Shown here: piece after piece, positions 1 to 64,000 of the stretch
Numbering within the stretch: position 1 is the first letter of the stretch
Layout of the letters: every line of letters starts with the position of its first letter
From: Octopus vulgaris
Lineage: Eukaryota
Assembly: GCA_951406725.2 (NCBI GenBank)
Contig: OX597814.1
Coordinates: 46,996,001-47,060,000 of the forward strand
DNA length: 64,000 nt
Direction: 5' to 3'
Position numbers and translations under genes: made by a program
Notes under the pieces: generated by a model
Told to the model about the DNA's origin: nothing
Database searches by the model: none
The model's input: only the letters and a program-made list of their open reading frames with translations

Positions 1-1175
1 GATACCTTAAGCCAGACATTAAAAAAAATCTGGAAAACCAGATCTGTTGCGACCAAGGGGGTCCACAGGGTCAAAATCACTTTTGACCCTTCCCAATCGA
101 CTGCAGGCAATATTTAAGAGCCTGGGCCCACTATCCCCCAGCCCCCGTCTGATGGTATCTTCAATCTAACCCGCCTCGGTGCCTGGGGGTAATCCACATA
201 CCCAGGCTCTTATTAATTTCCTCCTGCTGTACGACAGGAGGAACAGAATTTTGTTGCGCTCCAAGGGCTGGCTCGTGAAATTGTGAGCCTTCTCCGGCGT
301 GTCAAACAGCAACCATACAGTTGCATGTTTGACACCGCGGGATATGTATTTAACAGAGGACAAATAGTCTTTCAGTTCATTTTCTATAACTGGTTTTGGG
401 AAGACGGTGAGGGTATAAAGAACTTTAGAATAAGTTCTAACCACCACCGTCCTCTCCTCCATATCTTTCAACCACTGCTTCGATGGGACAATCTCCCACA
501 CTACAATCTTGTCTGTATTTCTTTTTGCCATGTCCAAAGCAATAGTTCACAAAAAAGGAAAGAGAGAATTCAAAAGAAAACAAAAGGGAAGAAGAAATAA
601 ATAAAAAGCAAACAGTTCAATAAAAAGTCACAATAGAAGAAGAAAACAATAGTTCAAAAAAAAAAAAAAAGAAAACACAGCAAAAAAAATCTTCTGGGCA
701 TTCAGGTACTCCAATTAAAACCTGGACTGCTCCACTTGAATACAGCTTTCCAACGTAGTCGTAAAATACAAACTATTTACAAACAGCGAACGACTTTCGG
801 TGGCAGGATAGTCACCAAACTATATTTCTCACAATGAGAAAAAATGTTCACTTCATGTGAACACTTGATATACAGTTTTCCAATAATGGTAAATGTTGTT
901 GTAAAAACAAACACTTTGAAGGATACACCCACCAGACAATGAGAAAAAACATTTTCATTTACTATGGACCATGTTGTTGAACCACAAGTAGATCAACATC
1001 CTGAATTCAGTGAAGATTCTCTGTTTGTAAAACATATAAGCACAGACAACGACCCTCACTGGGTGCAAGAGAAAAGTCTTACCTTGGCAGCAACTTCTTT
1101 TGGCAGGCTAAACACAGCCGGCTATCTTCTTCAGTGCACAACACAATGACGCATGCACACTGAGATTCATGGAAA
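1..1175 (-). mobile_element. 5' part of a Tx1/L1-like non-LTR retrotransposon (5'UTR plus decayed ORF1); continues beyond the left edge of the window
   Basis: ORF 166-537(-) aligns by eye with the ORF1 at 12037-12902: RGVKHATVWLLFDTPE..SYSRRKLIRAWVCGLPPGTEAG* versus KGNGYG/TVVVQFITAE..TYFGRKTSKVGVEGIPPNIEVTW. The TAG stop falls at the conserved W. The 5' end abuts a SINE head remnant at 1176. Confidence 0.7.
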
Positions 1176-1188
1176 GTAAGTAAGCTAC

Positions 1189-2446
1189 GGATCTTTTCAT
1201 TTTGAAAGCCAGATTTTTCAGATTTTTCTAGTTAACTAAATAATTTGAAACTTCGTATACTGGTAGAATGTGTCAAAAGAAAACAATAATTTCAACTAGT
1301 TTTTTTGACAAAAATGTATTTTATAAGTTTAAACGTAGTTTAAATCTGCGAATTTTAACCAATCGTATTGTCTGTTTTCATTTGAAATTATTAGCTGCAT
1401 AGTGTTACTGTGACGTAGACAGCTATTTTGTGAGTGGGTAAGCAGTAAGCAAACAGCTGTGGTAGATATGGTTATCATGGCAGTGGTGGTGGTGGTGTAG
1501 TGGTGACAGTGGATGATGATGATGATAGTAGTAGTAGCATTGATTATGTTAGAATGTCTCATGGATGGTAGTGTTGAAGACATTGCAGAGTGTAGTGGTG
1601 GTGAAATTGGTGATTTTGAATATGATGCTGGTATTGATCTTGGGGTTGTGGTTGCAGAAGATGGTTGTGGTGGTGGCATTGGAGGTTGTAGTAATTGTTG
1701 TAGTGGTGGTTGTGAAGATAATTCTGATATTGATAGTCTTTGCATTGAGGTGGTGGCAGAGTCAGAGTAAATAATAAGAGCCCAGTTAACACAAGATTCT
1801 TAAATTTCGGAGATCATAAGATAGAGAGCAAGAAGTTAAAAGTTTCAATACTGGCCCAATTCCTACACCCCAGATTCTTCAACTATTTTATAAGAAAGAG
1901 GTTAATGGCAGGATAGGGATTCAGCTTAAAAATAAATTGTATAACAAAAAATACATAAATAAATTACTGCTCCAACGATGTAATTTTAGTATGTGTGTAT
2001 GTATGTATGTGTGTGTGTGTGTAAGCAATGCAAACAATGGAAAATAATTTAAACACTCATTTTATATATACTAAGACTTTCAAAAAGAATTTAGCTATTT
2101 AGGATCTGCACAAATTTTATATATACTCCACGAAGTTTGAAAGTGTTTAGTTACGATAAGCGGATGTTTACATTTTAGTTATTTACATGTTTACGTTAAC
2201 TACGTCACAAAATAGCTGTTTACGTCACAGTAAGAATATTTTGAGAGGCAGTAAATGATATGAAGTCGAAAGAAAGAATATCATTGGTTAAAATTCGAAT
2301 TATTAAACAACGTTAAACTTAGAAATTACGATTCCGTTTTCATTTTGGTTTACAATTATGTTTTCTTTTGACACATTCTACCAGTATACGAAGTTTCAAA
2401 TTGTTTAGTTAACTAGGAAAATCTGGCTTTCAAACTGAAAAGATCC
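1189..2446. mobile_element. Non-autonomous Mutator-like (MULE) foldback element
   Basis: Long imperfect TIRs (GGATCTTTTCA...TGAAAAGATCC, with shared AAACTTCGTATACTGGTAGAATGTGTC). Exact 9-bp TSD GTAAGCTAC at 1180-1188 and 2447-2455. Low-complexity GGT/GAT interior with no transposase. Confidence 0.85.
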
Positions 2447-2479
2447 GTAAGCTACTTACCACACAGCCACTCCTGCGAC
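2447..2479 (-). mobile_element. 5' head remnant of tRNA-derived SINE (family B), split by the MULE and truncated by the Tx1-like element
   Basis: GTAAGCTACTTACCACACAGCCACTCCTGCG matches the SINE heads at 13207-13245, about 45060 and about 56420. It is completed by 1176-1188. Confidence 0.75.
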
Positions 2480-2495
2480 TATAAAACGAAAGTGA

Positions 2496-2558
2496 TGCGT
2501 CGGCCGGGAGTTGAACCCGGATCGACAGCTTGGAAGGCAACAATGCTACCACCGACGC
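2496..2558 (-). pseudogene. tRNA-Gly(TCC) pseudogene with about 9 nt deleted from the D-arm
   Basis: Reverse complement is GCGTCGGTGG-TAGCATTGTTGCCTTCCAAGCTGTCGATCCGGGTTCAACTCCCGGCCGACGCA. Acceptor stem, TCC anticodon loop and T-arm are recognisable. Only 63 nt long with a mismatched anticodon stem. A TTTT run lies shortly downstream. Confidence 0.85.
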
Positions 2559-2654
2559 CACAATATATATATATATATATATACACAGACACAGACACAC
2601 ACACACACACACGCACACATGCGGGTATATGCGTATATAGAAGTTTTTACTCTT

Positions 2655-2920
2655 ATTGCTCTGCCTGGCGTCGGACTGTGAGGAAAGGCGTTTCCATGGC
2701 TGAGGAAAGGAGAGCACAGCTGTGGTTGGACAGGCGGGACAGGAGGAGGACAACTGCAGCAACACCCCACATGTACCCATCGATGTTCGTGTGCAGCAAC
2801 TGTACCAAGGACTGCCACTCTAGAATTGGACTGTTCAGTCACAGCAGACGCTGCTCATCATCAAAGTAGGCCCCACCCTTGGCGCAACCCATTGTCTATC
2901 GAGACAGACGGGGAAAGAGA
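2655..2920 (+). mobile_element. 3' fragment of an RTE-clade LINE
   Basis: Translation WRRTVRKGV..CSNCTKDCHSRIGLFSHSRRC is the C-terminal zinc finger typical of RTE ORFs, followed by a short 3'UTR and a GA-rich tail. Confidence 0.75.
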
Positions 2921-3343
2921 AGAGAGACTCTTATTGCTTATTTTTTACACTTTTTTTACACATTTTTCTGTATTTTGCCTTGAGTCCTGTTTTTTCTTGT
3001 GCATGTGCGTATATAGACGTGAGTATGAACCTTTTTTGTGCGTGTGTGCAAGGGTGTATGCGGGTATGTATGTACTTTTTGGCGAATGTGTGGGTGAGCA
3101 TGTGTTTCAAGTGAGGGTGGATGAGTATATACATATAGGCGCATGTACATGGGTGTGCGGGCTTGTATGTGTGTGTATGGACATGCGTGCTTACACGATT
3201 ACTATGAACATTTTTACTCCCTTACCTTTACCCCCCCCCTACTCAGCGGGCATTCTAATAGCTCTTTTGTCTTAATAACGGTCAATTACACAGTAATTCC
3301 CCTTTGTTTAACGGTCATTTTCATAACATTTTTTTCGATGGCC

Positions 3344-3406
3344 TGATAACTGAAGAGATGCCAGCGTGGGTTTCCGCCCCGACATCCGAAACTCGAAGTT
3401 TTATCA
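3344..3406 (+). ncRNA. Type I hammerhead ribozyme-like motif (probable Penelope pLTR remnant)
   Basis: Stem I TGATAA/TTATCA, core CTGAAGA, stem II GATG..CATC(C), GAAA, short stem III ACT-cga-AGT and a GUU cleavage triplet at 3398-3400. Confidence 0.7.
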
Positions 3407-4764
3407 TGGCTACCGAATAATTATCACTTATTATTTTTACAGATATATATATATATATATATAAAGATACATACATACATATGTTTTTTTATACTTAAGT
3501 ATATATATGTACACGAGTAGATGTGTGTATATCTATATATCAGTAAGGGTTTCACATGTCCGTATGTATGTGTATGCTTATATGTGTATGTTTATATATA
3601 TATATGTGTGTGTGTGTGTGAGTGTGTGTGTGTGTGTGTATGTGTTTGTGTGTATAAATTTCTTATAGGAACACGGTATTTCGTTATGCAACCATAATAT
3701 ACCATCAAGTATATCAAAGGCTTATAAGTCAATTCTGTGTCCCACTTGTGTTAGCAATGCTATTCAATCACTCTTTAAAGTGTATATCTGCATGCATTAT
3801 CTCTATGTGTATAAACACATGATGTTACCTATATACCAAGTATTTGCTTGCCATTGCACTATTCTATCAATTATCAATCTGGCTACAATCCTTTCGTAGG
3901 CAGTTTTGCAACGTTCAGAAAGATTTTGAATTCTGTCCCTTTCTGGCTGTCTTCATTTCCTTTATTCCATTTCTGAATTCGTATAATCAGTCATACGGAC
4001 AATTGTGTTAATGTAAATATTCTATCTATATTTAATGGATGTGTAGTGGATCTTGTAGGCATGAAGTGGATTCGATCCACCGCAGCAAAATTTTAATTAA
4101 CACTGCAACAGAAATTTTCCCACGGTGGAACAATGGTTTTTCTCTGACAGCAGTTTTGCATTTCCAGATGCCTTTAGCTAGGCCGAAATAATGTCTTCAC
4201 CACTTGACCCTTTCTAACCTCTTCTACTTCAACAAAAGCTAGAATAGAGATAACAAGACCACCAACTAAATCCATTGTTCTCAATGATTTATCTATCCTT
4301 CTGGATCTTTATATAAGCAAGCACACTCCAAGCAAAAATCAGTTAGTCACCTTGGTGACAAACTCGTGAGTTGAGAGAGAGCTAACATCAGTTAGTGAAC
4401 CGACCACTAGAATCATGGAGGCAGGCAGACAAAACGGCAAGAGGGAAAAAGAAAGACAACGTCCCATACTCTCTCACTGTTGCTAATTCCAATTCTGTTC
4501 TCTTACAACATCATTCTATTTCTCTCTGTAGTTACTATTTAACAATGAAGAGGACACAAATACAAACTTTACTTCGCATGCTTTTGGATGTACGAAAACC
4601 TGCTCGTCAAAGGCAAGGTATTTGTAACGTAACGGTAAATTGATATTTTCTTAAATCTTCAATATTACACCCGTTACAGATGCATGTAAATAGATATTTA
4701 TATAGTGGTTCATCATACGCCAATCTGCACATGCACGCACACACACACACACACACACACATGC

Positions 4765-5153
4765 ACACAATTATATAATTATTTATGGGAATGGCTTTTA
4801 ACCTACAAACTTTATATTTACATATTACATATTTTTTTATGGTGATCCCTTCCATATGTATAAATGCTTACCAAATAAAATTGCACTTCACCTTTGAAGC
4901 TTCAGCGAAGCGATAAGGTTATGCTCAAGCACTCAGTTATGAGAAACATAACATTATAGCAGAAACAACAGTAAGCTAATGAAGTTCATTACATAAGTTC
5001 TTTTTCTTATGTCATTTCTCTAATTTCTTTTTACGCTCTGTATTCGACTAACGCTTTTTTTCTGAAGCATATGTATACTGAGTTCTAACACCAGGTTATT
5101 AGTATCACTATTCCTAAGCGACACTCACACACACACACACACACACAGGCATA

Positions 5154-5198
<45 letters not shown>

Positions 5199-5288
5199 GT
5201 GTATGCGTATATAAATATATGTATGCATGTATATATATATATATATATATATACATACATGCATACATATATTTATATACGCATACAC

Positions 5289-5355
<67 letters not shown>

Positions 5356-5607
5356 TTAGAGAAATGACATAAGAAAAAGAAATTATGTAATGAACTTCAT
5401 TAGCTTACTGTTGTTTCTGCTATAATGTTATGTTTCTCATAACTGAGTGCTTGTGCATAACCTTATAGCTTCGCTGAAGCTTCAAAAATGAAGTGCAATT
5501 TTATTTGGTAAGCATTTATACATATGGGAGAGATCACCATAAAAAAATATGTAATATGTAAATATAAAGTTTGTAGGTTAAAAGCCATTCCCATAAATAA
5601 TTATATA

Positions 5608-5615
<8 letters not shown>
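4765..5615. repeat. About 260-bp inverted repeat (4765-5022 and 5356-5615) enclosing CA/TA microsatellites and an inner palindrome at about 5193-5293
   Basis: The arms are reverse complements with a few substitutions. The same repeat family occurs at 38941-38970, 42300-42385 and 42795-42830. Confidence 0.9.
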
Positions 5616-5688
<73 letters not shown>

Positions 5689-5847
5689 AAAGCAATTAAG
5701 ATTCAAGTGAGTTCTGTTGAACTCACATGAATGCGGTACTTAACTTAGATGCACGTGTATTTGCTGCAATATTTGCAGCCTTAATATAGGTGGTCTTTGT
5801 ACGAAACAATTGTACCGAAATATTGATCCATTTTTGTTGCTTTTTCT

Positions 5848-5929
<82 letters not shown>

Positions 5930-5938
<9 letters not shown>

Positions 5939-6193
5939 GTGTACAGTTAAACACAAGAGAAAACTACCTTTAACAGGAAATTTTTACACGCTAGAAGAAG
6001 CAGTCATAACGACCAAAACCACATTTAAAAGCAATTTTCGGAGGAAATGAAAAATAAAAACTTATACCTTGTTATTTTTTTCCGGTTATATCTAAAATAA
6101 AATAACAAAGTCGTTATGACTGCTTCTTCTAGCGTGTAAAAAATACCTGTTAAAGGTAGTTTTCTCTTGTGTTTAAATGTGTACTATTTTATA
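5930..6193. repeat. About 84-bp inverted repeat (5930-6013 and 6110-6193) adjacent to (TA)n
   Basis: AAACACAAGAGAAAACTACCTTTAACAGG..GCAGTCATAACGAC and its reverse complement. Confidence 0.9.
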
Positions 6194-6234
6194 TTGAGAA
6201 TATGTTGTCTATTGACTTTTTATACATGCTAGGC

Positions 6235-6316
6235 TACTGGTGGTGAAATTTCTAAGAATATTCGCTACCCTATATATATATAGGGTAGCGAATATTCTTA
6301 GAAATTTCACCACCAG

Positions 6317-6318
<2 letters not shown>
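6235..6318. repeat. Perfect 84-bp palindrome centred on (TA)6
   Basis: TACTGGTGGTGAAATTTCTAAGAATATTCGCTACCC-(TA)6-GGGTAGCGAATATTCTTAGAAATTTCACCACCAGTA. Confidence 0.95.
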
Positions 6319-6352
<34 letters not shown>

Positions 6353-6582
6353 GGGGGAGTTTACGAAAAAAACAAAAGACGAAGACAGGTGGTGTACAAA
6401 ACAAACAGATGTTTTAGTATAACGCTCAAAATAGAAAAAGTCTTTTACGATTCGAGCCTACGCTCTTCTACAGAAAGGGACACAGAAAAAACAAGGAGAG
6501 AAACAAAGAGAGAAAAAATGTGTGTAGTGATTAACGATCTATTATATATATATATATTAGTGCCTTGTTGTACCACTTATCT

Positions 6583-6655
<73 letters not shown>

Positions 6656-7377
6656 GATACATAGATACATACATATATATTATATATATAATACACATAC
6701 AAGAAAAAGGTTGACAGTGTCTTCGAAGTTTGTATATTCGATTTGTGAATACATAACTGTATTGAATACTACTGACGGTAGATATTGATGTAAACATGTA
6801 AACATTCTCCCGACAACATCTAGGGTTTTGTGCCTCTATAAACATTTACTATTACAACAGTTATCACTTTCGATATAATTCGAGTCTTTTATAATCTAGT
6901 GTGAGCACATACAAACTTTATGTTTAAAATATGCATTTAATGTTGTAATATCGTTTCTTACTAAACTAGAATGTTTCTTTGACGTAATGTCTAAGAATAG
7001 GTCTGATAAAAATTCTATTTTAAAAATTTAGATTATTTTCCTTACATCATCGGTACTCGACATTTTCTTTATTTTTCTTAGCTTTGCAATATCGCTTCAA
7101 TATGAGTGAATCTTAACAATTTAGATAACATATTCAGACCAGAAAAAAATATTCTTAGTTTAATCAAACATTCTGTAAATAGTTATATATCAATGTTTAG
7201 TTCACCACTTTGTACTTCGTTTCTTTGGCAGAGTTTATTCCATTACAATCATTCTTTCCAAGTATACGGTTAGGCGATAACTTGATATTTTAAAAGAATA
7301 TGGTTTATGTTGTGAAGAGGAAGAAAAATCTAATGTGTCGGACGCTTGTCTTTTTCGAGTTGAGATAGTGGAGAGAA

Positions 7378-7437
<60 letters not shown>

Positions 7438-8269
7438 GGTAAGAAATATAGAAAGAGAAATAGAGGTTTTATCACTAGACCACAAAATTGAGGTCTACTG
7501 TTATGAATGCACTGCTTCCTACAGTAGCAATACATGAATTGTGGCTTTTACACCTTCTACCAACCATCACCAGTCTCGGAGACCCTGCAAAGGTCATGGG
7601 CGCATCCTTTCTTCTTCTAACTGAATCATAAACACAAAACGGGCTGAAATATCTCCGTGCTGACATTTAGTATCTTTATCAGAAATACGAAAATATCATC
7701 AGTATTTAACATCATTCCACTCTTTAACAGCAACAACATTCCGATGGAGGTAATAGTATACAACAAAGAGCAGGTATCGAAAATTACACGTAATTGTCCT
7801 ATTTCTGATGGATTCCGTAGTAGGATTCCACCCTAAAAGCATTACATTTTAGAAACTTGACTATTCCAAAGGAAGAAGGAAAGTATCGGTGGTAATAGAA
7901 GTCAGTTGTCTGCTTTTATATAACAGATATTGCATACTTTGAAATACGATCAAACAAATAGGTTTTCGTCTTCGACTGGGAGTGGAGAAGAATTATGGAT
8001 TCATCCTACGGGTAGATGAGTTTTAGTATCTTAAATCAGATGTAAAAAAATTAAGCATGTAAATAAACAATAAACGAAATGATATGCATAACCAATTCCA
8101 AGTAAATAAAGAAATTCTAATATTTATTATTTAAGCTTTTGTTGTGTTACCAATATATAAAAGTGCAAAAGTTTTCAAAATAAAACTTTAAAATGGCGGT
8201 CTTTAGAATATGTCGTGCAATATGTGAACAACAGAGCTGTTGCAAATAATCAAAGAAATAAATATATTG

Positions 8270-8450
8270 CTTTCAAATTCTGGAACAAGGCATCAAGTTC
8301 GGGAAGGGCATAAGTCGATTATATCGACCCCATGTTCGACTGGTACTTACTTTATCGACCCCGAATGGATGAAAGGCAAAGCCGACCTCGGTGGAATTCG
8401 AACTCAGAACGTAAAGGAGGACGAAATGCCGCTAAGCATTTTGCTCGGCG
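8270..8450 (-). mobile_element. tRNA-derived SINE (family A), partial
   Basis: Core TTTATCGACCCCGAA.GGATGAAAGGCAAAG.CGACCTCGG.GGAATT.GAACTCAGAACG is shared with 33535, 46780 and 60454. Confidence 0.85.
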
Positions 8451-9143
8451 GAACAAATAAATATATTAATAAACAGAAGCAAAGGTCACTTTTTTTTCTG
8501 AAAACTTTGAAAAAAGCTTTTGCATATTTGTGAGAACTAAAAAGAGCTAAATTTAGGTTTTCATATTTATAATCGGCAACAAAGTGAAAGCTTTAGAAAT
8601 ACTGACCACCTTGTACAATGTCAGTTCTCAATGTGACATAACTAACCCATTTGCTACGCCCATTATTGAACTGACATGCCCAGCTGTCTTATTTCTTCTT
8701 TTGACACACCCATTAAGAATATTCTCTGGAAGATCGTTCAAACTCCTAGAAATAGCAGTCAAATTTCTTTCAAGTCATAATCTTAGTCTTGCGCTAAAAA
8801 ACATATACAATGATTTAATCACAAATTTTTATCTATTTATGGATAGAAATATTAAAAGAAAAGGAATCAATTTGACAAGCTACTTGGAAACGAATGCTCA
8901 ATTCATATCCATGAAGAGATCTGTAGCTTGTGGATATTTATAGTTTCTACAAACTCGATCGAACCTTAAATTGCTCGTCTAATTTGCATAACAGTGCATG
9001 AGCTGACGAAGCGGGTAGTTAATTGATAAATTAATGTGCTCCATAGAGTTGATTTCATAATTTGTAAGATCTATTTTCTTATACATACATACATATAAAC
9101 ATGCACACACATATGCGCGATCACACGCACGCACACACACACA

Positions 9144-9211
<68 letters not shown>

Positions 9212-10028
9212 CACGAGGTGCATTCAAGAAGTTTAGAGACATTTTAGGAGAAGCAATTATGATTGTCCCATATTATTGTAATTTTAGTTTATCATTACTA
9301 TACCTCTAAAAAGCTGACCTGCCAATCTTTTTTTTTTTTTTACTCCAGATTAAAGTAGACGGCCATAACAGCATTTTTAATTGATTGTCTCAGAATGCAG
9401 TATGCAGTCGAGATGTGAAAACAATTTTGAAGCTCGCTATACAGTAATATACAATCACTACAGAAACTTATGAAATGCTCCAGACAGTTTGCGAATTAAC
9501 TTGAATGAACCAAACATCAGTTTTTCGCTGGCACAAAAGGCCATGCAAAGTACATCCACCGGGAAGCTCATAATGATCCCCTTTTACGATAGTAAGGGCA
9601 TCAACAATATCCACTGGTTTCCTTCTGGCCAGTACGGTTAAAAATGAGGTTTTGAAGGAATTCAGGGAGAGATTTCGTCGCAAAAGGTAGAGCACCTGCA
9701 CCAGGACAATGCGCCTGTCGACAATTCTATCCTGGTAACCAACAATTTGATAGATGGGCATCAAACTGTCCCTCACCCTCCCTACAGTCCAGACCTTGTT
9801 TCCTGTAACTTTTGGCTATTCTCTAAGCTTAAGTACATTAAGGAGGCTGTGACAAGGGTCTTGAACACCTCCACTTTAGAGGACGTTCATATGACCTCCA
9901 CGAAATGGCTGGCGCTCTACAACACGTACACTGAAGTCAAAGAATCCTACTCTGATTAGTTTTTCACTTCTTCGAAATTAATGTTTCTCATGAAAAAAGT
10001 CTCAAAACTCTCAAAACTGCTGGAATGC

Positions 10029-10036
<8 letters not shown>
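9212..10036 (+). mobile_element. Decayed mariner element
   Basis: TIR-like ends CACGAGGTGCATTCAAGAAGTT and AACTGCTGGAATGCACCT. Translation PHPPYSPDLVSCNFWLFSKLK contains the mariner YSPDL motif, with HQDNAP upstream in another frame. Confidence 0.9.
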
Positions 10037-10084
<48 letters not shown>

Positions 10085-10126
10085 TGTCTGTGTGTCTGTG
10101 TGTGCGTGTGTGTATGTATACATGTA

Positions 10127-10896
10127 CTAGCTGACGTACCCAGTAATTCCAGGGAAAGCGGGGCTTATCCCTTGGTTCCGTTCTAATATTTGTTTCGCTA
10201 ATCCAATAACGACAATACAAAGCATGTCGCCCTTAAAACGGTTTTTGTACATTCACAGAGAATACCGAACTGTCTTATACAGGATCTTGTTTTTGATTTA
10301 TGAATACCCAAATTGTGAAGTCAGTTCTGTAATAACATGAAACTAGTTACCCGATAGTAAGAATTCAAATAAAGAAGCTCTGAAAAGGGCTTTAATGCGT
10401 TCCCAGAGTTATAGAACACAGGAGGAAATACTAATAAGGTATGTATACTAAAATCGTGAAGCATGTTACATAATAACAGGCTAATCAAATATGATATAAG
10501 AATTCAAAGTAAATAACTCTGAAAAGGTCTTTTGTGCGTTGCCAGAGAATATTACCCTCAGGTGCGCTAGCGTTGATATATTCGTGAATAAGTCACTAAC
10601 CGAAATAAGTGGATCTATTGTTTAGGAAAATACTATTAACTTGTTTATGGGTTGTACTGGATAAATTGTGAAAATGACTAACCGTTCAAATACTAAAAAA
10701 TAAGCATACTCAATTTCATTTTTACCAAATAATTTAGGAACGTGAATGTCATTTCCCTTGGCTATATATAAGGATCCCTTCCAGGGGACCTATTATCGAT
10801 TTTTTTTTTAACAATCTGAGTATGCCATGAGGTTTTCAGACATGAGTTCTATTCACGTGTCAAGTTCCATCAAAGTCAGAATTTCCCACATATGTA

Positions 10897-10928
<32 letters not shown>

Positions 10929-10930
10929 TT
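10127..10930 (-). mobile_element. Probable non-autonomous Helitron-like element
   Basis: A-CTAG terminus followed by an imperfect hairpin (CCCAGTAATTCCAGGG), as in the 17807 and 41813 copies. The 5' end is ill-defined within TA/TG repeats. Confidence 0.45.
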
Positions 10931-10949
10931 CAACAGCTTTCACTTTAAT

Positions 10950-11260
10950 GTCTAGTGGTTAGGGTATTCAGCTCATGATCATAAGGTTGTGTGTTCAATT
11001 CCCAGCGATGCGTTGAGTCCTTGAGCAAGACACTTTATTTCACGTTGCATCCACTCAGCTGGCAAAAATGAGCAGTATCTGTACTTCAATGGGTCAGCCT
11101 TCTCCCACTCTGTGTTACGCTGAATCTCCCTGAGAACTGCGTTAAGGGTACACGTGTCTGTGGAGTACTCAGTCTCTTGCGCGTTAATTTCACGAGTAGG
11201 CTGTTCCATTGATCTGATCAACTGGGACCCACGTCATCGTAACCGACAGAGGGCCAGTTT
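10950..11260 (+). mobile_element. tRNA-derived SINE (CORE-like body)
   Basis: A-box-like TAGTGGTTAGG and B-box GTTCAATTCC, then GTCCTTGAGCAAGACACTT. Confidence 0.75.
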
Positions 11261-11372
11261 AATGTTTGAGTGTGAGTGTGTGTGTGTGTGTGTGTATATG
11301 TACGTGTATTGATATGGATGTATATGTATATATGTATATATATGTATGTGTGTATCTCTCTCTCTATGTGTG

Positions 11373-11420
<48 letters not shown>

Positions 11421-11454
11421 CCCTAGATAGCAGTGATTACAAGATTTGTGGTTT

Positions 11455-11821
11455 TATATTCTTTTATTCTTTTACTTGTTTCAGTCATTTGACTACGGCC
11501 ATATTGGAGCACCACCTTTAGTCGAACAAATCGACCCCCGGATTTATCTTTTGTAAGCCTAGTACTTATTCTATCAGTCTCTTTTGCTGAACCGCTAAGT
11601 TACGGGGACATAAACACATCGGTTGTCAAGCGATGTTGGGTGGACAAACACAGACACAAATAACAGGCACACACATACATATACATATATATACGACGGG
11701 CTTCCTTCAGTTTCCGTCTACCAAATCAACTCACAAGGCTTTGGTCGGCTCGAGACTATAGTAGAAGGTGCCGCGCAGTGTGGCTGAACCTGGAACAATG
11801 TGATTGGGAAGCAAGCTTCTT
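11455..11821 (-). mobile_element. SINE family B body and tail; its head continues at 13207-13245
   Basis: CAGTTTCCGTCTACCAAATC..CACAAGGCTTTGGTCGG..GGGAAGCAAGCTTCTT is homologous to 45060-45500. Confidence 0.85.
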
Positions 11822-13206
11822 TATTTCTTTTAAATTGCCATAAAGGCATTACATAGAGGGGGGGGCACTACAACACATGTGGGGACACATGACAAAATAA
11901 TAATATGATACATGAATGATAATTGAGAAATGAGAATATGAAAAGTGTGTTACTCACCCCACACTGAGTAACACCACTCGCCACCTCTGAGTCCTGAGTC
12001 CTCTTTAATCTTTGATCTAGTCTTTCGTTTACCATTTTACCCATCGCTGAGTAACAACACTCTCTCCTCCTTTTTCACCGGGGGAGGGGTCTTGTAAATT
12101 TTGTGGTGTCTGTTCTTTCTTCTTTTTCCTGTGGGGAGACGAGGTAGGTGGCTTTGGTATCTGTATGGGAAAGGTAGGTCTGAGGTGGATGGAGTTGGGT
12201 GGGATGGAGTTGGTCCCACATCACACTGACTGTTCTTCCTCTTCTTTCTCTTGTTCCTTTTATTCTCTATCACTGACCATTCATCCTCCTTGTTCCTTCC
12301 ATCTATCTGTACTTCTTCCTTGTTCTCCTCCGTCTCCACCACCGCTTCTTCTGTTGTTTTCTTCTGCAGAGGGCAGTGAGCTCTAATGTAGCCCTTTTGG
12401 CCACATTTAAAACACCGTGGGATTCTGCCCTCCACCCACACTCTTAACATAATTTCTCCCAACGTCACCATCTCCGCCAAACTCTCCAATTGCCTCTCCT
12501 CTGTCTGTGTTTTTCCTCTCCATCCTCCGTCCTCCGTTTCCGTGGCTTGGAGGACAGCCACCTCCTCCTCACTTCCGACAAGGACGGCTGCCGCAACCCA
12601 AGTCACTTCTATATTGGGTGGAATTCCTTCTACCCCCACCTTGGAAGTCTTTCTTCCAAAGTACGTGGGCAGAAGTACCACTTCCTCCGTTTCTACAGTT
12701 GCACTCGTCAGTTTCTTTGTCTCCTCCGCTGTAATAAACTGGACAACCACCGTCCATATCCATTTCCTTTCGCTATGTATGTCACTTCCTTCGAAAGCCT
12801 CTTCAATGCTTTTTCTACCTTTTCCATCTCCATCCGCTCCACCTTCCTACTCTCCACTGAGTACACCTTGTAGGTAATGGTTTTCTTTTCCCTATTTTCC
12901 ATAACCCTTTTCGCAGGTTTTTACATCACCGCCCACCTTCTGTATCAACTTACTCAGCTCCTCCAGTCCGGCTGGGTCCACCTCCCTTTTCTTCACCTTA
13001 CAGCCTCAGCAAAACTCTTTACTCTTTCCAAATGCTCGTCCATTCTATTTACCCCCTTAACGAGCTCCTCCTCCGCTGAGGACAGCTCATACTCGCTAAG
13101 GTCTGAATACATTGTCTCTACCGGTATAACACCCGCTGCCAAGCAGCACAAAAAATTCCATCCGACTCGTCAAAAATCAACACAGCGAATAGACCGACGC
13201 ATGTGC
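11822..13206 (-). mobile_element. Complete 1.4-kb ORF1-only (HAL1-like) Tx1/L1-type non-autonomous retroelement
   Basis: Exact 16-bp TSD GGGAAGCAAGCTTCTT (11806-11821 and 13207-13222) and an A-rich 3' tail. ORF1 starts at the ATG at 13112 (MYSDLSEY..KSFAEAV), is broken by stops and a frameshift, has an RRM-like middle and a knuckle CFKCGQKGYIRAHC (H replaced by Y). No ORF2 is present. Confidence 0.85.
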
Positions 13207-13346
13207 GGGAAGCAAGCTTCTTACCATAAACCCACTCCTGCGCCTATATTTTAAGATTACATATATATAACATACAATTTTAGTCTCGCTATGTAAACGA
13301 AGTGATTACATAGCAGGTCTTTATTTTTGTGTTAGCAGAACACATA

Positions 13347-21713: not shown

Positions 21714-21965
21714 GGATCTTTTCGCTTTGACCGGCAGTTTTTTAAAATAATTTCTTTGTCACTAAACACTTTTAAACTTCGCATACTGGTAGAAAGTGTT
21801 TATAAAACATCTTTTTCTCTTGGCTTTCTTGAGAAAATTCTGTAGTTTGTAAGCTATTTGTTGTTTAATTTCTTGCATTTCGGCAATTTCAATCAATCAG
21901 TGACGTCTATTGAGGTGAATACAATCTCTCCGGATCTTTGTCAACAACTATTATTTGCGGTGTCA
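21714..21965 (+). mobile_element. Solo TIR arm of a Mutator-like foldback family
   Basis: Begins GGATCTTTTC..AAACTTCGCATACTGGTAGAA, homologous to the termini at 1189 and 22146. Confidence 0.7.
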
Positions 21966-22145
21966 TATGAATTTAACATTAAAGACAAACATTTTAAACT
22001 TATTTACTTCAAACTATAATGTTTTCTAACCAAATTTTACTTGATACGTAAATGTACATTCATTTACATTTTGGATGTGATCTTGTACTTTAAATGTGCC
22101 ATTTTAATTTTGCTAGTTGTTTATGTCACTATTAGTGCTATTTTA

Positions 22146-23080
22146 GGATCTTTACCCTTTGAACGGCAGATTTAGAAATTAAATTTTTTGTAACTAAACA
22201 CTTTCAAACTTCGGACACTGGTAGAATGTGTCATTAAAGCATCTTTTCCTCTTAGTGTTGTTGAGAAAAGTTTGTATTTTCAAAGTTATTTTGTGCTAAA
22301 GTTGTCATATTTCGGTAATTTCAACCAATCAATGGCGTGTACTCAGCTGCATAAAATTACTGCTGTCGTTTGTCAACAACTTCCTGCGGTGTATATTTCG
22401 TTTGTCACTTTTATTTATGACATATTTAATCTCAGTTACGTTTGTATGAATAAACGAGTGTATCTGAAGCATGTTTACTTCATGGCACCACCACAATCGT
22501 TCGTGCATTTCTACTGCTTTTAGTTTTTTTTTTCCTGTTTTCAGCTACTATTTTCGGAAAGACTTTTCCACCTACCCCACACCTTCCAATTTCTTCATTT
22601 TTCACTTTTTTCCATAACTCAGACCCTAAAATCCCAACCCTAACCCTAAAAGCCCAACCCTAACCCTAAAACCCTAACCCTAACCCTAACTCTGAAACCT
22701 TAACTCTAAAACCCAAACCCTAACCCTAAAACTCTAATCCTAACCCTGAAACCCTAAAGCTAAAACCACTACAAACGCACGATGTCATAAATAGCAGTGA
22801 CAAACGAAATATACATCGCCAATAGTTGTTGTTGACAAACAACGGCAGTAATTTTATTCAGCTGAATACACGCCACTGATTGGTTGAAATTACCGAAATA
22901 CGACTACTTTAACACAAAATAACTTTGAAAATACAAACTTTTCTCAACAATACTAAGAGTAAAATATGTTTTATATGACACTTATAAAATATGTTTTATA
23001 TTCTACCAGTGTCCGAAGTTTGAAAGTATTTAGTTACAAAAAATTAATTTCTCGATCAGCCGTTCAAAGGGAAAAGATCC
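22146..23080. mobile_element. Mutator-like foldback element with about 270-bp TIRs and internal (CCCTAA)n-like repeats
   Basis: GGATCTTTACCCTTTGAACGGC...GCCGTTCAAAGGGAAAAGATCC. Arms about 22146-22410 and 22795-23080. The flanks CTATTTTA and CCATTTTA form an imperfect TSD. Confidence 0.85.
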
Positions 23081-31311: not shown

Positions 31312-32110
31312 TTTATTATTATTTTCTCTTTATCACAAGTTTTGTTGGAGTTTCTGGAGTCTTGCACGCGTAGCGCGCTTACTACCTGCAGCATACGGTA
31401 CCATGCTATTCGTTCTTTTCAACTATCTGATACTTTCCTGATTATTCTGGCCGTGCCAAGGAAGCAAAACTTTTGCAACAGTTCTACTGGGCACTCTATT
31501 CTAATTTCCTTTATATTCCTCTTGATGCCTTCTGATACTGTTCCCAAGAACCCAACAATAATTGATACTGTCTTCACCTTCTTCATTTTCCATATCCGGG
31601 CTATTTCGTACTTAAGAGGGTTGTATCCATCTATCTTTTCGCCTTCCTTCTTGACTATACGTGAGTCTAAGGGACATGCAACATCAGCTATATAGCATAT
31701 GTGGTGCACCTTGTCCATCGCCGGTAGGTTCGGTCTGTTATGCTCTAGCACCTGATCTGTTTGGATTGGGAAATCCCAGAGAATTTTGCTAGTCTCCTAC
31801 TCCTCCACTCTCTAACCACCACTTTTCGCAGTTTCCAATGTAGCACTTTCCCTACCTGGTCGTGTCGCCGCAACTTGTAGTGGTTTGGGGCAAGTCTAGG
31901 GCATTGGTTCGTGATATGGGCGATGGTTTCATCCACTCTATTGCAGATGTGGCACAGCGGAGACACTTTCTCATTCCTACGGTTGACCCTCCAGTTAGTG
32001 GCCAAAGCTTGGCCTTGCGCTACCAGTATAGTGCTCTCGGTTTCTTTTTTTTAGGGTCCCTTTCATCAGCCAATCCCACCTATTTTTTCCAGCAACTTCT
32101 GTTGTGACTA
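31312..32110 (-). mobile_element. 5'-truncated R4/Dong-like RLE-type LINE (zinc knuckle plus restriction-like endonuclease)
   Basis: CHICNRVDETIAHITNQC (CCHC) and NRP..IADVACPLD..KEGEKIDGY..LQKFCFLGTARIIRKV, with a (TAA)n-like tail at about 31312-31322. Confidence 0.85.
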
Positions 32111-45057: not shown

Positions 45058-45220
45058 AGGTGCAGGCGTGGTTGTGTAGTAAGACGCTTGTTTCATAATC
45101 ACATGATTCCGGGTTCAGTCCCCATGCGTGGCACCTTGGGCAAGATCTACTATATCCTCGAGCCGTCTAAAGTCTTGTGGAGGGGGTTTGGTAGACGGAA
45201 ACTGAAAGATGCCTGTCGTT

Positions 45221-45292
<72 letters not shown>

Positions 45293-45500
45293 CGTGTGCG
45301 TGTGTGTCTTTGTGTCTATGTTTGTTCCCCCACCACCGCTTGACAACAGGTGGTGGTGTATTTGCGTCCCATATCTTAGCGATAGAGTAAGTATTAGGCG
45401 TAAAAAAGAAGCATTGGTGGGTCGATTCATTAGCCTAAAAAATTCAAGGCGATGCCCCAGCATGGCTGCAGTCTAATGACTGAAACAAGTAAAAGATAAA
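45058..45500 (+). mobile_element. Family B SINE, near full-length with internal (GT)n
   Basis: GGTGCAGGCGTGGTTGTGTAGTAAG head, GGGTTCAGTCC B box, TGGTAGACGGAAACTGAAAG body and TGACTGAAACAAGTAAAAGA tail. Confidence 0.85.
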
Positions 45501-45734
45501 AGACAAAATTAAATGAGATGGCAGGGATTAACTCATTTTATGTAGCGAGACATATTTTCTTAGCAACTTCCCAGTCGAAATAATTTCAAAGTAGTCATCG
45601 CTTTCATTGATAATAATTAGGATAGGGAGTTGACAGAAACTGTAATGAATGAACTAAATACTCAATAGTAATTAAGTCACTCCCCGCGCGACCAAACGTT
45701 AACAGCTGACCTTGTCAGAATCTAACGTTTATCT

Positions 45735-56060: not shown

Positions 56061-56450
56061 TATATATGCGTGGCTATGTGGTAAGAAGCTTGCTTCCCAA
56101 CCACTTGGATCCGGTCTCGATCCTAGTGGGTGGAATATTGGGCAAGTGTCTTCTACTATACTACGAATAAAACACTGTGGGCGGATTTGACAGACAGAAA
56201 CTGAAACCTGTCGTATATACGTATATATATATATATACGTATATACGACAGGTTTCAGTTTCGTATATATATATATATATATATACGTATATACGACAGG
56301 TTTCAGTTTCTGTCTGTCAAATCCGCCCACAGTGTTTTATTCGTAGTATAGTAGAAGACACTTGCCCAATATTCCACACGCTAGGATCGAGACCGGATCA
56401 TAGTGGTTGGGAAGGAAGCTTCTTACCACATAGCCACGCATATATATATA
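56061..56450. repeat. Fold-back duplication of a decayed family B SINE around (TA)n
   Basis: Two arms of about 160 bp in inverted orientation with about 5 differences, plus an extra partial arm copy in the centre. Confidence 0.9.
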
Positions 56451-61963: not shown

Positions 61964-64000
61964 TGTTGTAATGAAATGGTACACCCCTTCCCACGTAACA
62001 AGTGCTAAGAGTGAACCAGCCACTATAAAGTCAGGCATCAGCCGTTTATATGAGGTCAGTAGTAGTAGAGTCGTTGTAGTTGTACGAGTCAGTGTCAGTT
62101 ATGTGTGATATACGAGTTCGAGTTATCGTCAAGGTAGACGTTTCAAAGTCATTGTTGTCTTGCGGAGCTATCAGCGATAGCACGATAGACGGGTCAAAGA
62201 TAATTAGACGTAGAATACCGCCACAATATATTAGTGGCGACAAGAATATTACAGTACTGACAGCAACATACAAGTGGACGAGGATCCACATCGTAACAGT
62301 GGTGACGAGGATATAAACAATTCATGTGGACAACGTTGGAAAACAAAAACATTATTTTCACGAGAAAATAAACAATTCACGCGGACGACGTTGAAAACTT
62401 TTCACGTGGAGAAATTAAAAACTCGACAGAGGAGTAACAAACATTTTTATAGTATATATTTTACGAAAAATCCGTAAAACTATGGAAAACTTGTTAGAGG
62501 ATTTAGTTGAACTGCAAAAAACAGCAACAACAACAACTCAGAGAACAAGAACAGCAACAAATGTTACAGCAGCAATTGCTACAACTAATGAAGTTGGTAA
62601 CAAAACTGGAAAATACGTTTTCATCAGACTATGTAGCAAATTTAGTAAATGAATTTAAATATGACCAGGAAGAAGGAATCAATATCGAGGCATATCACCG
62701 AATATCTGCACACATTTTTGAAAAAGACTGGAAAGGCGAAATGAAAATGCGCCTAATTCTGAAGAAACTGGCGACGATAGAACATAAGAAATACTGTAAC
62801 TTTATATTACATAAAAAAGTTTCTGACATAAATTTCACGGACACAATTGACATTTTATGGAAAATTTTCAGGGAAAAAACATCGTTATTCAACACACGTT
62901 GGAAGTTTTTAAAGACGGAGGAAAGCGATAACGAAGACGTTATCACATATGCAGGTAGATTGAACAGAGAGTGCGAGAGATTTAAAGTGGATAAACTAAC
63001 TCCAGACTCGTTCAAGTGCCTGCTTTTGTACAAGGGCTTACTGCTAAAAGGGACGCAGAGTAAAAGTGGTACCTGCCATATTCCAACAAGTGATGGACGC
63101 AATGTTAAATGATTGCGGTTTCGCTATCGCTTATCTCAATGATATTTTGATAAAGAGTGAGTCAGTGGAGCAACACTTTGACTTATTAAAAAAGTATTCG
63201 GAAAAATAAATGAATATGAGTTTAGACTAACAGGGGAAAAGTACGAATTTTTGATGAAAAAAATTAAATATTTAGGTCAAGTAATTGACGAAAGCGGGGA
63301 GCGGGGAGCGGGGCGAAGGCCAGACCTATCAAGCGCGACAGTAATACGGAATAGGCCTTCCTCAAGGAACGTCAAATTGTTACAAGCATTTTTAGGCTTG
63401 GTAAACTACTATCAAGTATATTATCCCAAACGTCATACAACACAACTAAATGAGCTGTTAAAAAAGCATGTCAAATGGTTTTGGTCAGAAAAATGCTAGA
63501 AGGCATTTGAGGAACTAAAAAACATGTTAACTTCAGACTTGACGCTTGGAAACGATACTGGCAAGAGATGCTAGTGAGTATGGGGTAGGTGCCGTACTCC
63601 TATACAAATATGAAGATGGCAGCCAAAAGGCCATAGCTCAAGCGTCAAGGACGCTATTGCCAGCGGAAAAACATTATAGCCAAATTGAAAAAGAGGCATT
63701 GGCGATTATATTTGGCATAAAAAAGTTCCACAGGTTTATACATGGTAAACGGTTTAGACTACAAACAGACCATCGCCCGTTGCTAACGATTTATGATCCA
63801 AGAAAGGAATTCCTGTACATAGAGCAAACAGATTGCAGCGAGGGGGAATCATACTATTAAACCACGACTACGCAATGGTATATTTACCTTCGAAAAAGCT
63901 AGGACATGCTGACGGCCTATCCAGGTTAATACCCAGAAATAGCGAACCATTCATAGACCCAGTAAAAGCAACCCTAAGAGCCGAAGGGCAAATTAAACAC
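61964..64000 (+). mobile_element. Decayed Gypsy (Mag/K02A2.6-like) LTR retrotransposon: 5' LTR, PBS, gag, partial RT and RNase H
   Basis: TG-start LTR and PBS TGGTGACGAGGAT. Gag EFKYDQEEG..YCNFIL..EKTSLF, RT FQQVMDAML..AYLNDILI and KYLGQVID, RNase H DASEYGVGAVL..YSQIEKEALAIIF..TDHRPL. Protease and the RT N-terminus are deleted near 63065. Confidence 0.92.

What the first reader, a model, noticed from the sequence alone, without database searches (positions are those of the whole stretch)
1..13245. Two divergent Tx1/L1-like elements joined to the same site of one SINE family: candidate SINE-targeting retrotransposon lineage
Seen: element 2 (11822-13206) splits a family B SINE and duplicates GGGAAGCAAGCTTCTT. 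Once the later MULE insertion (1189-2446) is removed, the 5' end of element 1 (1-1175) abuts GTAAGTAAGCTACTTACCACACAGCCACTCCTGCG. This is the equivalent SINE position to within about 1 nt and in the same orientation. The two ORF1 proteins are homologous but highly diverged, and both elements carry CATGCGTC near the 5' end. Known: several Tx1-clade LINEs are sequence-specific for multicopy targets such as snRNA genes, tRNA clusters, microsatellites and other transposons. Inference: an old lineage uses the tRNA-derived head of this abundant SINE as a safe-harbour target. Alternative: the site (TTCTT/ACC) resembles the generic L1 endonuclease preference in a very high-copy repeat, so n=2 could be chance.
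Basis: partly seen in the sequence, partly recalled or inferred. Interest (0 to 1): 0.8.

Follow-up and report, generated by a model that had tools for sequence, protein, structure and literature searches.

The report
Half-retrotransposons landing in octopus SINE heads
In what is likely an octopus genome, a short jumping gene that encodes only a predicted RNA-binding protein sits at one exact base of a very common repeat, and sequencing reads show many relatives at that same base, likely placed there by a borrowed sequence-specific enzyme; a distant second element touches the same spot, but its habit is unproven.

Summary
Element 2 (11822-13206, minus) is an ORF1-only retroelement with an exact 16-nt duplication inside a SINE head. 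Element 1 encodes a distant member of the same ORF1 family (88-91 bits against a profile of relatives; best of 1000 shuffles 9). In public runs of three related organisms, depth does not fall across element 2's 3' junction, and the best-supported flank is the SINE remainder (64 and 158 reads). Roughly 50-90% of 5' ends run on into the target. Other elements share only the last ~37 nt and the same site. Chance at a generic L1 site is therefore unlikely for element 2. Element 1 is not settled: its family ends in a target-like GGGAAGTA, only 1 of 3 readable flanks fits the SINE, and its 3' end is outside the window. No ORF2 was found, so 'Tx1' is inferred, not tested. Tx1 families that target other transposons are known; I found no SINE-head target in nine paper searches. 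This scan noted the same system before on at least eight other stretches of this genome (unchecked notes). Verdict: new variant of a known kind.

The parts
11822..13206 (-). Element 2: ORF1-only non-LTR retroelement; 94-nt 5' leader, broken ORF1, ~215-nt 3' region ending in a short A-rich tail
12037..13112 (-). ORF1 of element 2 (RRM-like domain plus degenerate CCHC knuckle), broken by frameshifts near 12750 and 13000
   Evidence: profile hits 12648-12917 (43 bits) and 12370-12753 (128 bits); model and fold search
11822..11858 (-). Last ~37 nt of element 2, shared with other elements that differ further inside
   Evidence: depth 130/162 at 11858 against 24/32 at 11865; mixed loose ends at 11857-11858 in 3 of 4 runs
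11806..11821 (.). Target-site duplication, copy at the element's 3' end
13207..13222 (.). Target-site duplication, copy at the element's 5' end
13207..13244 (-). 5' part of the host SINE head of element 2
11457..11821 (-). Remainder of the host SINE of element 2 (rest of head, body, microsatellite, A-rich tail)
   Evidence: BLAST to the intact copy at 45061-45503
1..1178 (-). Element 1: 5' part of a distant ORF1-family element, cut by the window's start; 647-nt T-rich leader; 5' junction between 1175 and 1179
1..531 (-). Broken ORF1 of element 1, close to Octopus sinensis LOC115225585 (P0074)
   Evidence: profile hit 106-519; 195 bits to P0074; name
1176..1188 (-). SINE head piece between element 1 and the MULE-like insert (includes the 9-nt duplication 1180-1188)
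1189..2446 (.). Non-autonomous MULE-like DNA element inserted later into the target site
   Evidence: 9-nt duplication, long inverted ends; no Pfam hit
2447..2477 (-). 5' part of the host SINE head of element 1
2496..2558 (-). tRNA-like sequence with a TCC (Gly) anticodon and a shortened D arm, 18 nt upstream of element 1's host SINE head
   Evidence: Rfam tRNA 37.3 bits, gathering 29; not called by ARAGORN

Best explanation
Element 2 is an ORF1-only retroelement whose relatives sit at the same base of an abundant SINE head in many genomic copies, likely pasted there by the sequence-specific endonuclease and reverse transcriptase of an unseen full-length LINE (probably Tx1 clade), and element 1 is a distant relative that likely used the same route. 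Shown: the anatomy, the 16-nt duplication, ORF1 homology, and the repeated tail-SINE junction in other genomes. Inferred: the partner's ORF2 protein binds the shared ~37-nt 3' tail, nicks the strand reading CTTCTT/ACC just behind box A of the head, primes reverse transcription with the help of the AAGAA match between tail and target, and cuts the other strand 15-16 nt on, which rebuilds the target on both sides. The passenger's own ORF1 protein would package its RNA.
For: Exact duplication inside a SINE head. No RT or endonuclease family in 3 of 3 sense frames of element 2. In two raw-read runs the best-supported loose end at the 3' side is the SINE remainder (64 reads in X22; 158 and 56 in X23). 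Depth in the bin that spans the junction is 171 and 330, against at most 62 and 78 if flanks were unrelated; contig runs X1 and X2 point the same way. At the 5' end the last bin keeps 66-76% of the depth in 4 of 4 runs, against 42% expected for unrelated flanks. SINE-only reads do not explain this: about 120,000-150,000 would be expected, none of 1432 and 1908 laid reads fits two places, and the two listed whole-element joints have 0 raw reads. Reads leave element 2 at 11858 into mixed sequence (agreement 0.53-0.57), so several kinds of element share tail and site. Element 1 is in the same ORF1 family, lies in the same orientation, and joins within 0-4 nt of the same place. Known precedent: Tx1-Mar and SINEU-3 in Mariner-N4_AMi with a 16-nt duplication (PMC4494074).
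Against: No autonomous partner was found: two longer-protein searches gave none, nor did scans of metagenome contigs, so clade and enzyme are inferred. The shares come from binned depth and from 24 of 935 loose-end rows, not from counted junctions. No run held more than 0.28 of the sampled words, so these are relatives' copies. For element 1, no read was laid in the two raw-read runs. Of three consensus rows that reach past the family's end, one fits the SINE (AGCA), one does not, and one is at best a decayed match. Elements 1 and 2 are far apart on the ORF1 tree (quick tree only).
Confidence: 0.62

Rival explanations
1. Element 2's family is targeted, but element 1's lineage is not. Its 5' end happens to resemble the SINE head (GGGAAGTA against GGGAAGCA), and this one copy joined the SINE by microhomology, by chance, or by a later deletion that brought the two together.
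For: The family's end is itself target-like; 2 of 3 readable flank consensus rows do not clearly give the SINE, and one contig runs on for over 2 kb past the end. Different leader length (647 against 94 nt), a long separate branch, and 0 reads in organism C.
Against: Same orientation and same site as element 2. By window counts a generic L1-type nick falls on a SINE-head site about 0.5-1% of the time (4 heads among 358-770 sites). The X1 row continues AGCA, as the SINE does.
Confidence: 0.2
2. Targeting comes from tethering to the RNA polymerase III machinery bound at the head's A and B boxes, as in tRNA-gene-targeting elements (Dictyostelium TRE, yeast Ty3; recalled), not from sequence recognition by the endonuclease.
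For: The site lies between box A and the B-box-like motif of a tRNA-like head.
Against: Tethered elements insert beside, not inside, the bound gene (recalled). The reads show one fixed base. The tRNA-like sequence at 2496-2558 is not interrupted (n=1). PMC4494074 (passage) attributes target choice mainly to the endonuclease.
Confidence: 0.09
3. Hitchhiking: one SINE-plus-element composite was amplified as a unit, so the many junction reads reflect one insertion event.
For: Flanks beyond the SINE could not be seen, so independence of loci is not shown directly.
Against: Junction reads split into mixed sequences at 11858. Most laid reads are under 90% alike (958 of 1432; 1313 of 1908). The SINE flank in the reads differs from the window's host copy at several places.
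Confidence: 0.05
4. Chance: ordinary L1-type elements with a loose T-rich preference hit a site that is common because the SINE is very abundant.
For: TTCTT/A resembles the L1 preference (recalled). SINEs cover 11.6% of the O. vulgaris assembly (PMC13282606). The window was picked out among many.
Against: SINE-head sites are 4 of 358-770 generic sites in the window, or 4 of 52 even for the exact hexamer TTCTTA, which predicts 0.5-8% of copies at this site. The read data imply half or more.
Confidence: 0.04

Closest known systems
Tx1-Mar LINEs and their SINEU passengers in crocodilians; Xenopus Tx1 in Tx1D; Tx1-9_AMi, Tx1-8_Crp, Tx1-4_AMi (PMC4494074: passages and sections 14-15 read)
   Same: A non-LTR element uses another abundant mobile element as its fixed landing site; non-autonomous passengers share the site; a 16-nt duplication.
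   Different: Those targets are DNA transposons or LTR elements. Here the target is the tRNA-like head of a SINE, the passenger is a protein-coding half-LINE, and the partner LINE was not seen here.
ORF1-present non-autonomous LINEs: HAL1, HeT-A, Ag-Sponge (PMC5786205: passage read)
   Same: Only ORF1 is kept, between the 5' and 3' ends of a LINE; mobilised in trans.
   Different: The passage read gives no fixed SINE target for these. Derivation from a named autonomous family could not be tested here.
Small-RNA-gene-targeting Tx1 families Keno (U2), Mutsu (5S), Dewa (spacer of tRNA-Leu arrays) (PMC3706591, PMC4494074: passages read)
   Same: Sequence-specific insertion at a multicopy small-RNA-related sequence.
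   Different: Their targets are host genes or gene spacers. Here it is a dispersed, mobile, tRNA-like repeat at about one head per 13-16 kb of this window.

Membership tests
Tx1 clade of non-LTR retrotransposons | RT sequence groups with Tx1 in a phylogeny | not testable with these tools
   No ORF2 in either element as seen; no partner recovered
Tx1 clade of non-LTR retrotransposons | APE-type endonuclease in ORF2 | not testable with these tools
   As above
Tx1 clade of non-LTR retrotransposons | ORF1 with RRM domain(s) and CCHC knuckle (also found in other clades; recalled) | tested here: met
   Model residues 61-141 match RRM folds at Z 6.5-7.7, rmsd mostly 2-3.5 A over about 70 residues, a common score range; most Foldseek rows are RRM proteins, none at E<=0.001; a zinc-knuckle family in 17 of 24 relatives scanned; ZCCHC3-like cluster at 0.90
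Tx1 clade of non-LTR retrotransposons | Target-site duplication and A-rich 3' end | tested here: met
   16-nt duplication and short A-rich end, element 2 only
Target-specific non-LTR family (Kojima's rule: one flank type in more than 20% of copies) | More than 20% of element 2-type copies at one target | tested here: met
   About 51-91% at the 5' end by binned depth, no depth loss at the 3' end, 4 of 4 runs; an estimate, not a count
Target-specific non-LTR family (Kojima's rule: one flank type in more than 20% of copies) | More than 20% of element 1-type copies at the same target | tested here: inconclusive
   1 of 3 readable consensus rows fits; 12 of 36 loose-end rows shown; 0 raw reads
ORF1-only non-autonomous LINE (HAL1-like) | ORF1 present, ORF2 absent, both ends intact | tested here: met
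   Element 2: 1385 nt between the duplications, ORF1 then ~215 nt, no Pfam RT or endonuclease hit. Element 1 cannot be judged (cut by the window)
ORF1-only non-autonomous LINE (HAL1-like) | 5' and 3' parts traceable to an autonomous L1-clade family | not testable with these tools
   No genome held; no partner sequence
tRNA-derived SINE (host) | Head derived from a tRNA | tested here: inconclusive
   Aligns by eye with the tRNA-like sequence at 2496-2558 and shows A- and B-box-like motifs; Rfam gives no tRNA hit on the decayed intact head at 45061
Mutator-like element (the later insert) | Long terminal inverted repeats and a 9-nt duplication | tested here: met
   no transposase hit, so a non-autonomous copy

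The most novel reading that the evidence does not exclude
Octopuses carry a three-tier system: a LINE whose endonuclease has specialised on the head of the genome's commonest SINE, serving several deeply diverged ORF1-only passenger lineages (elements 1 and 2 among them) that converge on one short 3' tail and, in element 1's lineage, carry a target-like 5' end that helps rebuild the landing site. The system would be shared by at least three octopus species.
Probability: 0.4. Interest if true: 0.72.

Novelty: new variant of a known kind. Interest (0 to 1): 0.56.

Why it matters
It reverses the usual relation, in which SINEs exploit LINEs: here a SINE supplies the landing sites. The target is present in very many diverged copies, so hit and unhit copies together would map the recognition sequence of an APE endonuclease directly from genome data, which bears on how such enzymes gain specificity. 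A short shared tail across unlike passengers would also define the RNA signal that the partner reads. It affects repeat annotation too, since split SINEs and ORF1 copies are already annotated as host genes.

Tried and rejected
No genome is held for this window, so no extension to the left and no genome-wide tBLASTn. A 25-nt tail pattern had 0 matches in viral and in metagenome contigs. A profile of distant ORF1 relatives gave 123 pattern matches and 0 confirmed loci in metagenome contigs. Searches for longer, ORF1-ORF2 fused proteins found none; the second covered only 1508-4305 residues, so this is weak. Earlier notes had no look-alike by sequence for either element or for P0074. Another lead, that the SINE's tail resembles the element's tail, did not beat shuffles (148-550 of 2000 as high, 3 of 3 tails). 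The shared CATGCGTC was judged weak. The ORF1 tree is a quick tree of 72 of 154 sequences (those with >25 bits over >=110 profile positions); the careful search did not finish, and I draw only distance from it. Microsatellite hits to Rfam microRNA models are artefacts.
Full report
Setting. No genome is held for this window. The best protein hit of element 2's ORF is an Octopus bimaculoides CCHC protein (52% over 44% of the query). Of 10 relatives looked up, 6 are named from Octopus sinensis, O. vulgaris, O. bimaculoides or Argonauta hians and 4 are unnamed ENA or JGI records. The window is therefore most likely from an octopus (inference).

Observation. Element 2 (11822-13206, minus strand) lies between two exact copies of GGGAAGCAAGCTTCTT. 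The flanking halves join to a SINE like the intact copies at 45061 and 56068. Element and SINE point the same way. Element 2 has a 94-nt leader, an ORF1 from 13112 broken by frameshifts, about 215 nt of 3' region and a short A-rich end. Pfam finds nothing in its 3 sense frames, so no RT or endonuclease remnant. The insert at 1189-2446 has a 9-nt duplication and long inverted ends, the marks of a Mutator-like element (recalled definition), with no transposase hit. Past it the SINE head runs to 2477.

Homology of the two ORF1s. Direct comparison is weak (17 of 49, E 0.002). A library search gave 196 relatives at E<=0.001, 150 listed. A profile from 26 of the longer ones, without either window element, scores element 1 at 88-91 bits and element 2 at 128 and 43 bits. 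The best of 1000 shuffles of element 1's frame scored 9.2. Element 1's nearest relative is P0074 (195 bits); element 2 ranks 22nd against it (15 bits). On a quick tree of 72 sequences the two are far apart, element 1 with P0074 on a long branch. The predicted fold has an RRM-like domain (Z up to 7.7, a common range) followed by a CCHC knuckle, found in 17 of 24 relatives scanned. This fits Tx1/L1-type ORF1 but other clades share it (recalled), so it does not fix the clade.

Test of targeting, element 2. Twenty runs of three organism labels hold part of the element, at most 0.28 of its words, so they carry relatives and not this copy. I laid 4 of the 24 listed runs on 11797-13231 at 80% likeness. 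At the 3' side the best-supported loose end in both raw-read runs is the SINE remainder (64 reads in X22; 158 and 56 in X23; agreement 0.8, 0.81, 0.64). The bin spanning the junction has depth 171 and 330; unrelated flanks would give at most 62 and 78. The contig runs show no drop either, though contig depth is no copy number. No loose end at the junction itself is among the 24 rows shown; 911 rows were not shown, and the lists end at 39 and 48 reads. At the 5' side the last bin keeps 74, 66, 67 and 76% of the previous bin's depth, against 42% for unrelated flanks and 79% for reads that run through the duplication. That implies about 51-91% running on. Leakage of plain SINE reads is unlikely to explain this: 120,000-150,000 such reads are expected per run, 0 laid raw reads fit two places, and the two whole-element joints listed have 0 raw reads (15 of 44 joints shown). 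Depth falls from 130 and 162 at 11858 to 24 and 32 at 11865, and the reads that leave there are mixed (agreement 0.53-0.57). Several kinds of element therefore share the last ~37 nt. If the genome is about 2.8 Gb (the O. vulgaris figure in PMC13282606), this is of the order of 200 tail-bearing loci; the number is rough. The window has 4 independent SINE heads among 358-770 generic L1-type sites, or 52 exact TTCTTA sites, so chance predicts 0.5-8%.

Test of targeting, element 1. The same runs were laid on 1024-1203. The raw-read runs gave 0 reads. The contig runs gave 64 and 100 contigs, so the family is multicopy in organisms A and B. Contigs leave the window copy at 1150-1160, where it has a small deletion, and go on to ...GACTCATGGGAAGT. 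This matches window 1164-1177 and resembles the target's GGGAAGC. Three consensus rows reach further: AGCA (5 contigs, as in the SINE), ATGA (11 contigs, unlike it) and ATTAAATACT (2 contigs; unrelated, or a decayed target). Only 30 letters are shown per row and 12 of 36 rows are listed. This is inconclusive. It moves the junction to 1175-1179 and raises the rival that element 1 met the SINE by microhomology.

Mechanism. Shown: a half-LINE with a duplication, at a site reused by many relatives. Inferred from the known biology of APE-type LINEs: an autonomous partner supplies ORF2, recognises the shared tail, nicks the strand reading CTTCTT/ACC behind box A, starts cDNA synthesis aided by the AAGAA match between tail and target, and cuts the second strand 15-16 nt on. 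The duplication leaves an intact target, so later elements can land at the same place; the MULE-like insert shows only that the site is tolerated. I found no partner. Earlier notes of this scan report a full-length Tx1-type partner and head-to-tail stacks elsewhere in this genome; these are unchecked and I could not test them. Two of their side claims were tried on element 2 and not seen: a tail segment complementary to the target, and likeness of SINE tail and element tail.

Comparison with what is known. PMC4494074 (passages; sections 14 and 15 whole) describes Tx1 families aimed at piggyBac, Mariner, Harbinger and LTR elements, microsatellites and small-RNA genes, with SINEU passengers, a 16-nt duplication and tandem insertion. 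PMC5786205 (passages) lists ORF1-only LINEs. PMC3706591 (one passage) gives Dewa's target as the spacer of tRNA-Leu arrays. PMC13282606 (parts 1-2 of 3 and a four-term search of its one supplement) counts 13 recently active L1-Tx1 families in O. vulgaris and has no target analysis. PMC8967140, PMC4758252, PMC8869645 and PMC9004415 (passages) add no SINE target; PMC4758252 names OR2 as an Octopus CORE SINE, which the host repeat may be (not tested). Nine searches (listings only, except for the papers named) showed no LINE described as targeting a SINE head. Kojima and Fujiwara 2004, Bao and Jurka 2010, Ohshima and Okada 1994, Repbase and Dfam were not read and may hold such a case.

Verdict. 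It works like the transposon-targeting Tx1 systems, with a new kind of target and ORF1-only passengers. Membership in the Tx1 clade is untested. Targeting is well supported for element 2, likely but unproven for element 1. New variant of a known kind; interest 0.56.

Noticed in passing
window 2496-2558 (-): tRNA-Gly(TCC)-like sequence with a shortened D arm, followed by a T run and then directly by the SINE head that hosts element 1; it aligns by eye with the SINE head and may show the head's origin.
   Followed up: partly
window 1075-1088 (-), leader of element 1: A splice-donor-like AAG/GTAAG in the long T-rich leader, kept in other family copies; the close relative LOC115225585 has three protein accessions. 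The leader may be spliced in some transcripts.
   Followed up: no
window 56061-56446: A SINE head and body duplicated as a near-perfect inverted repeat (183-nt arms, 96%, 20 nt apart); a similar foldback lies at 4741-5638 (283-nt arms, 97%).
   Followed up: no
window 11797-11844: Depth over the junction bin exceeds depth at 11858 in 4 of 4 runs, so further insert types with a shorter match, perhaps the SINE's own tail, may use this site.
   Followed up: partly
window 13223-13229 and 11838-11844: The host SINE copy departs from other copies just beside the nick site, to a 7-mer also present in element 2's tail; about chance level for the lengths compared.
   Followed up: partly
window 21714-23080: Further copies of the MULE-like element's ends (72-76% alike).
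   Followed up: no
window 2660-2869 (+), 31419-31796 (-), 62507-63112 (+): Fragments that look like other retroelements: an RTE-like C-terminal zinc finger and a restriction-like endonuclease piece (both recalled, no Pfam support), and a DUF7083 gag-like frame.
   Followed up: partly
proteins P0061 and P0117: Gene models that fuse this ORF1 family to a C2H2 zinc-finger array and to an SNF2 helicase; likely annotation read-through, possibly exonisation.
   Followed up: no
proteins P0098, P0106, P0136, P0146, P0152: Distant 650-860-residue members from unnamed ENA/JGI contigs form their own group on the tree and share an extra C-terminal domain with no Pfam name.
   Followed up: partly
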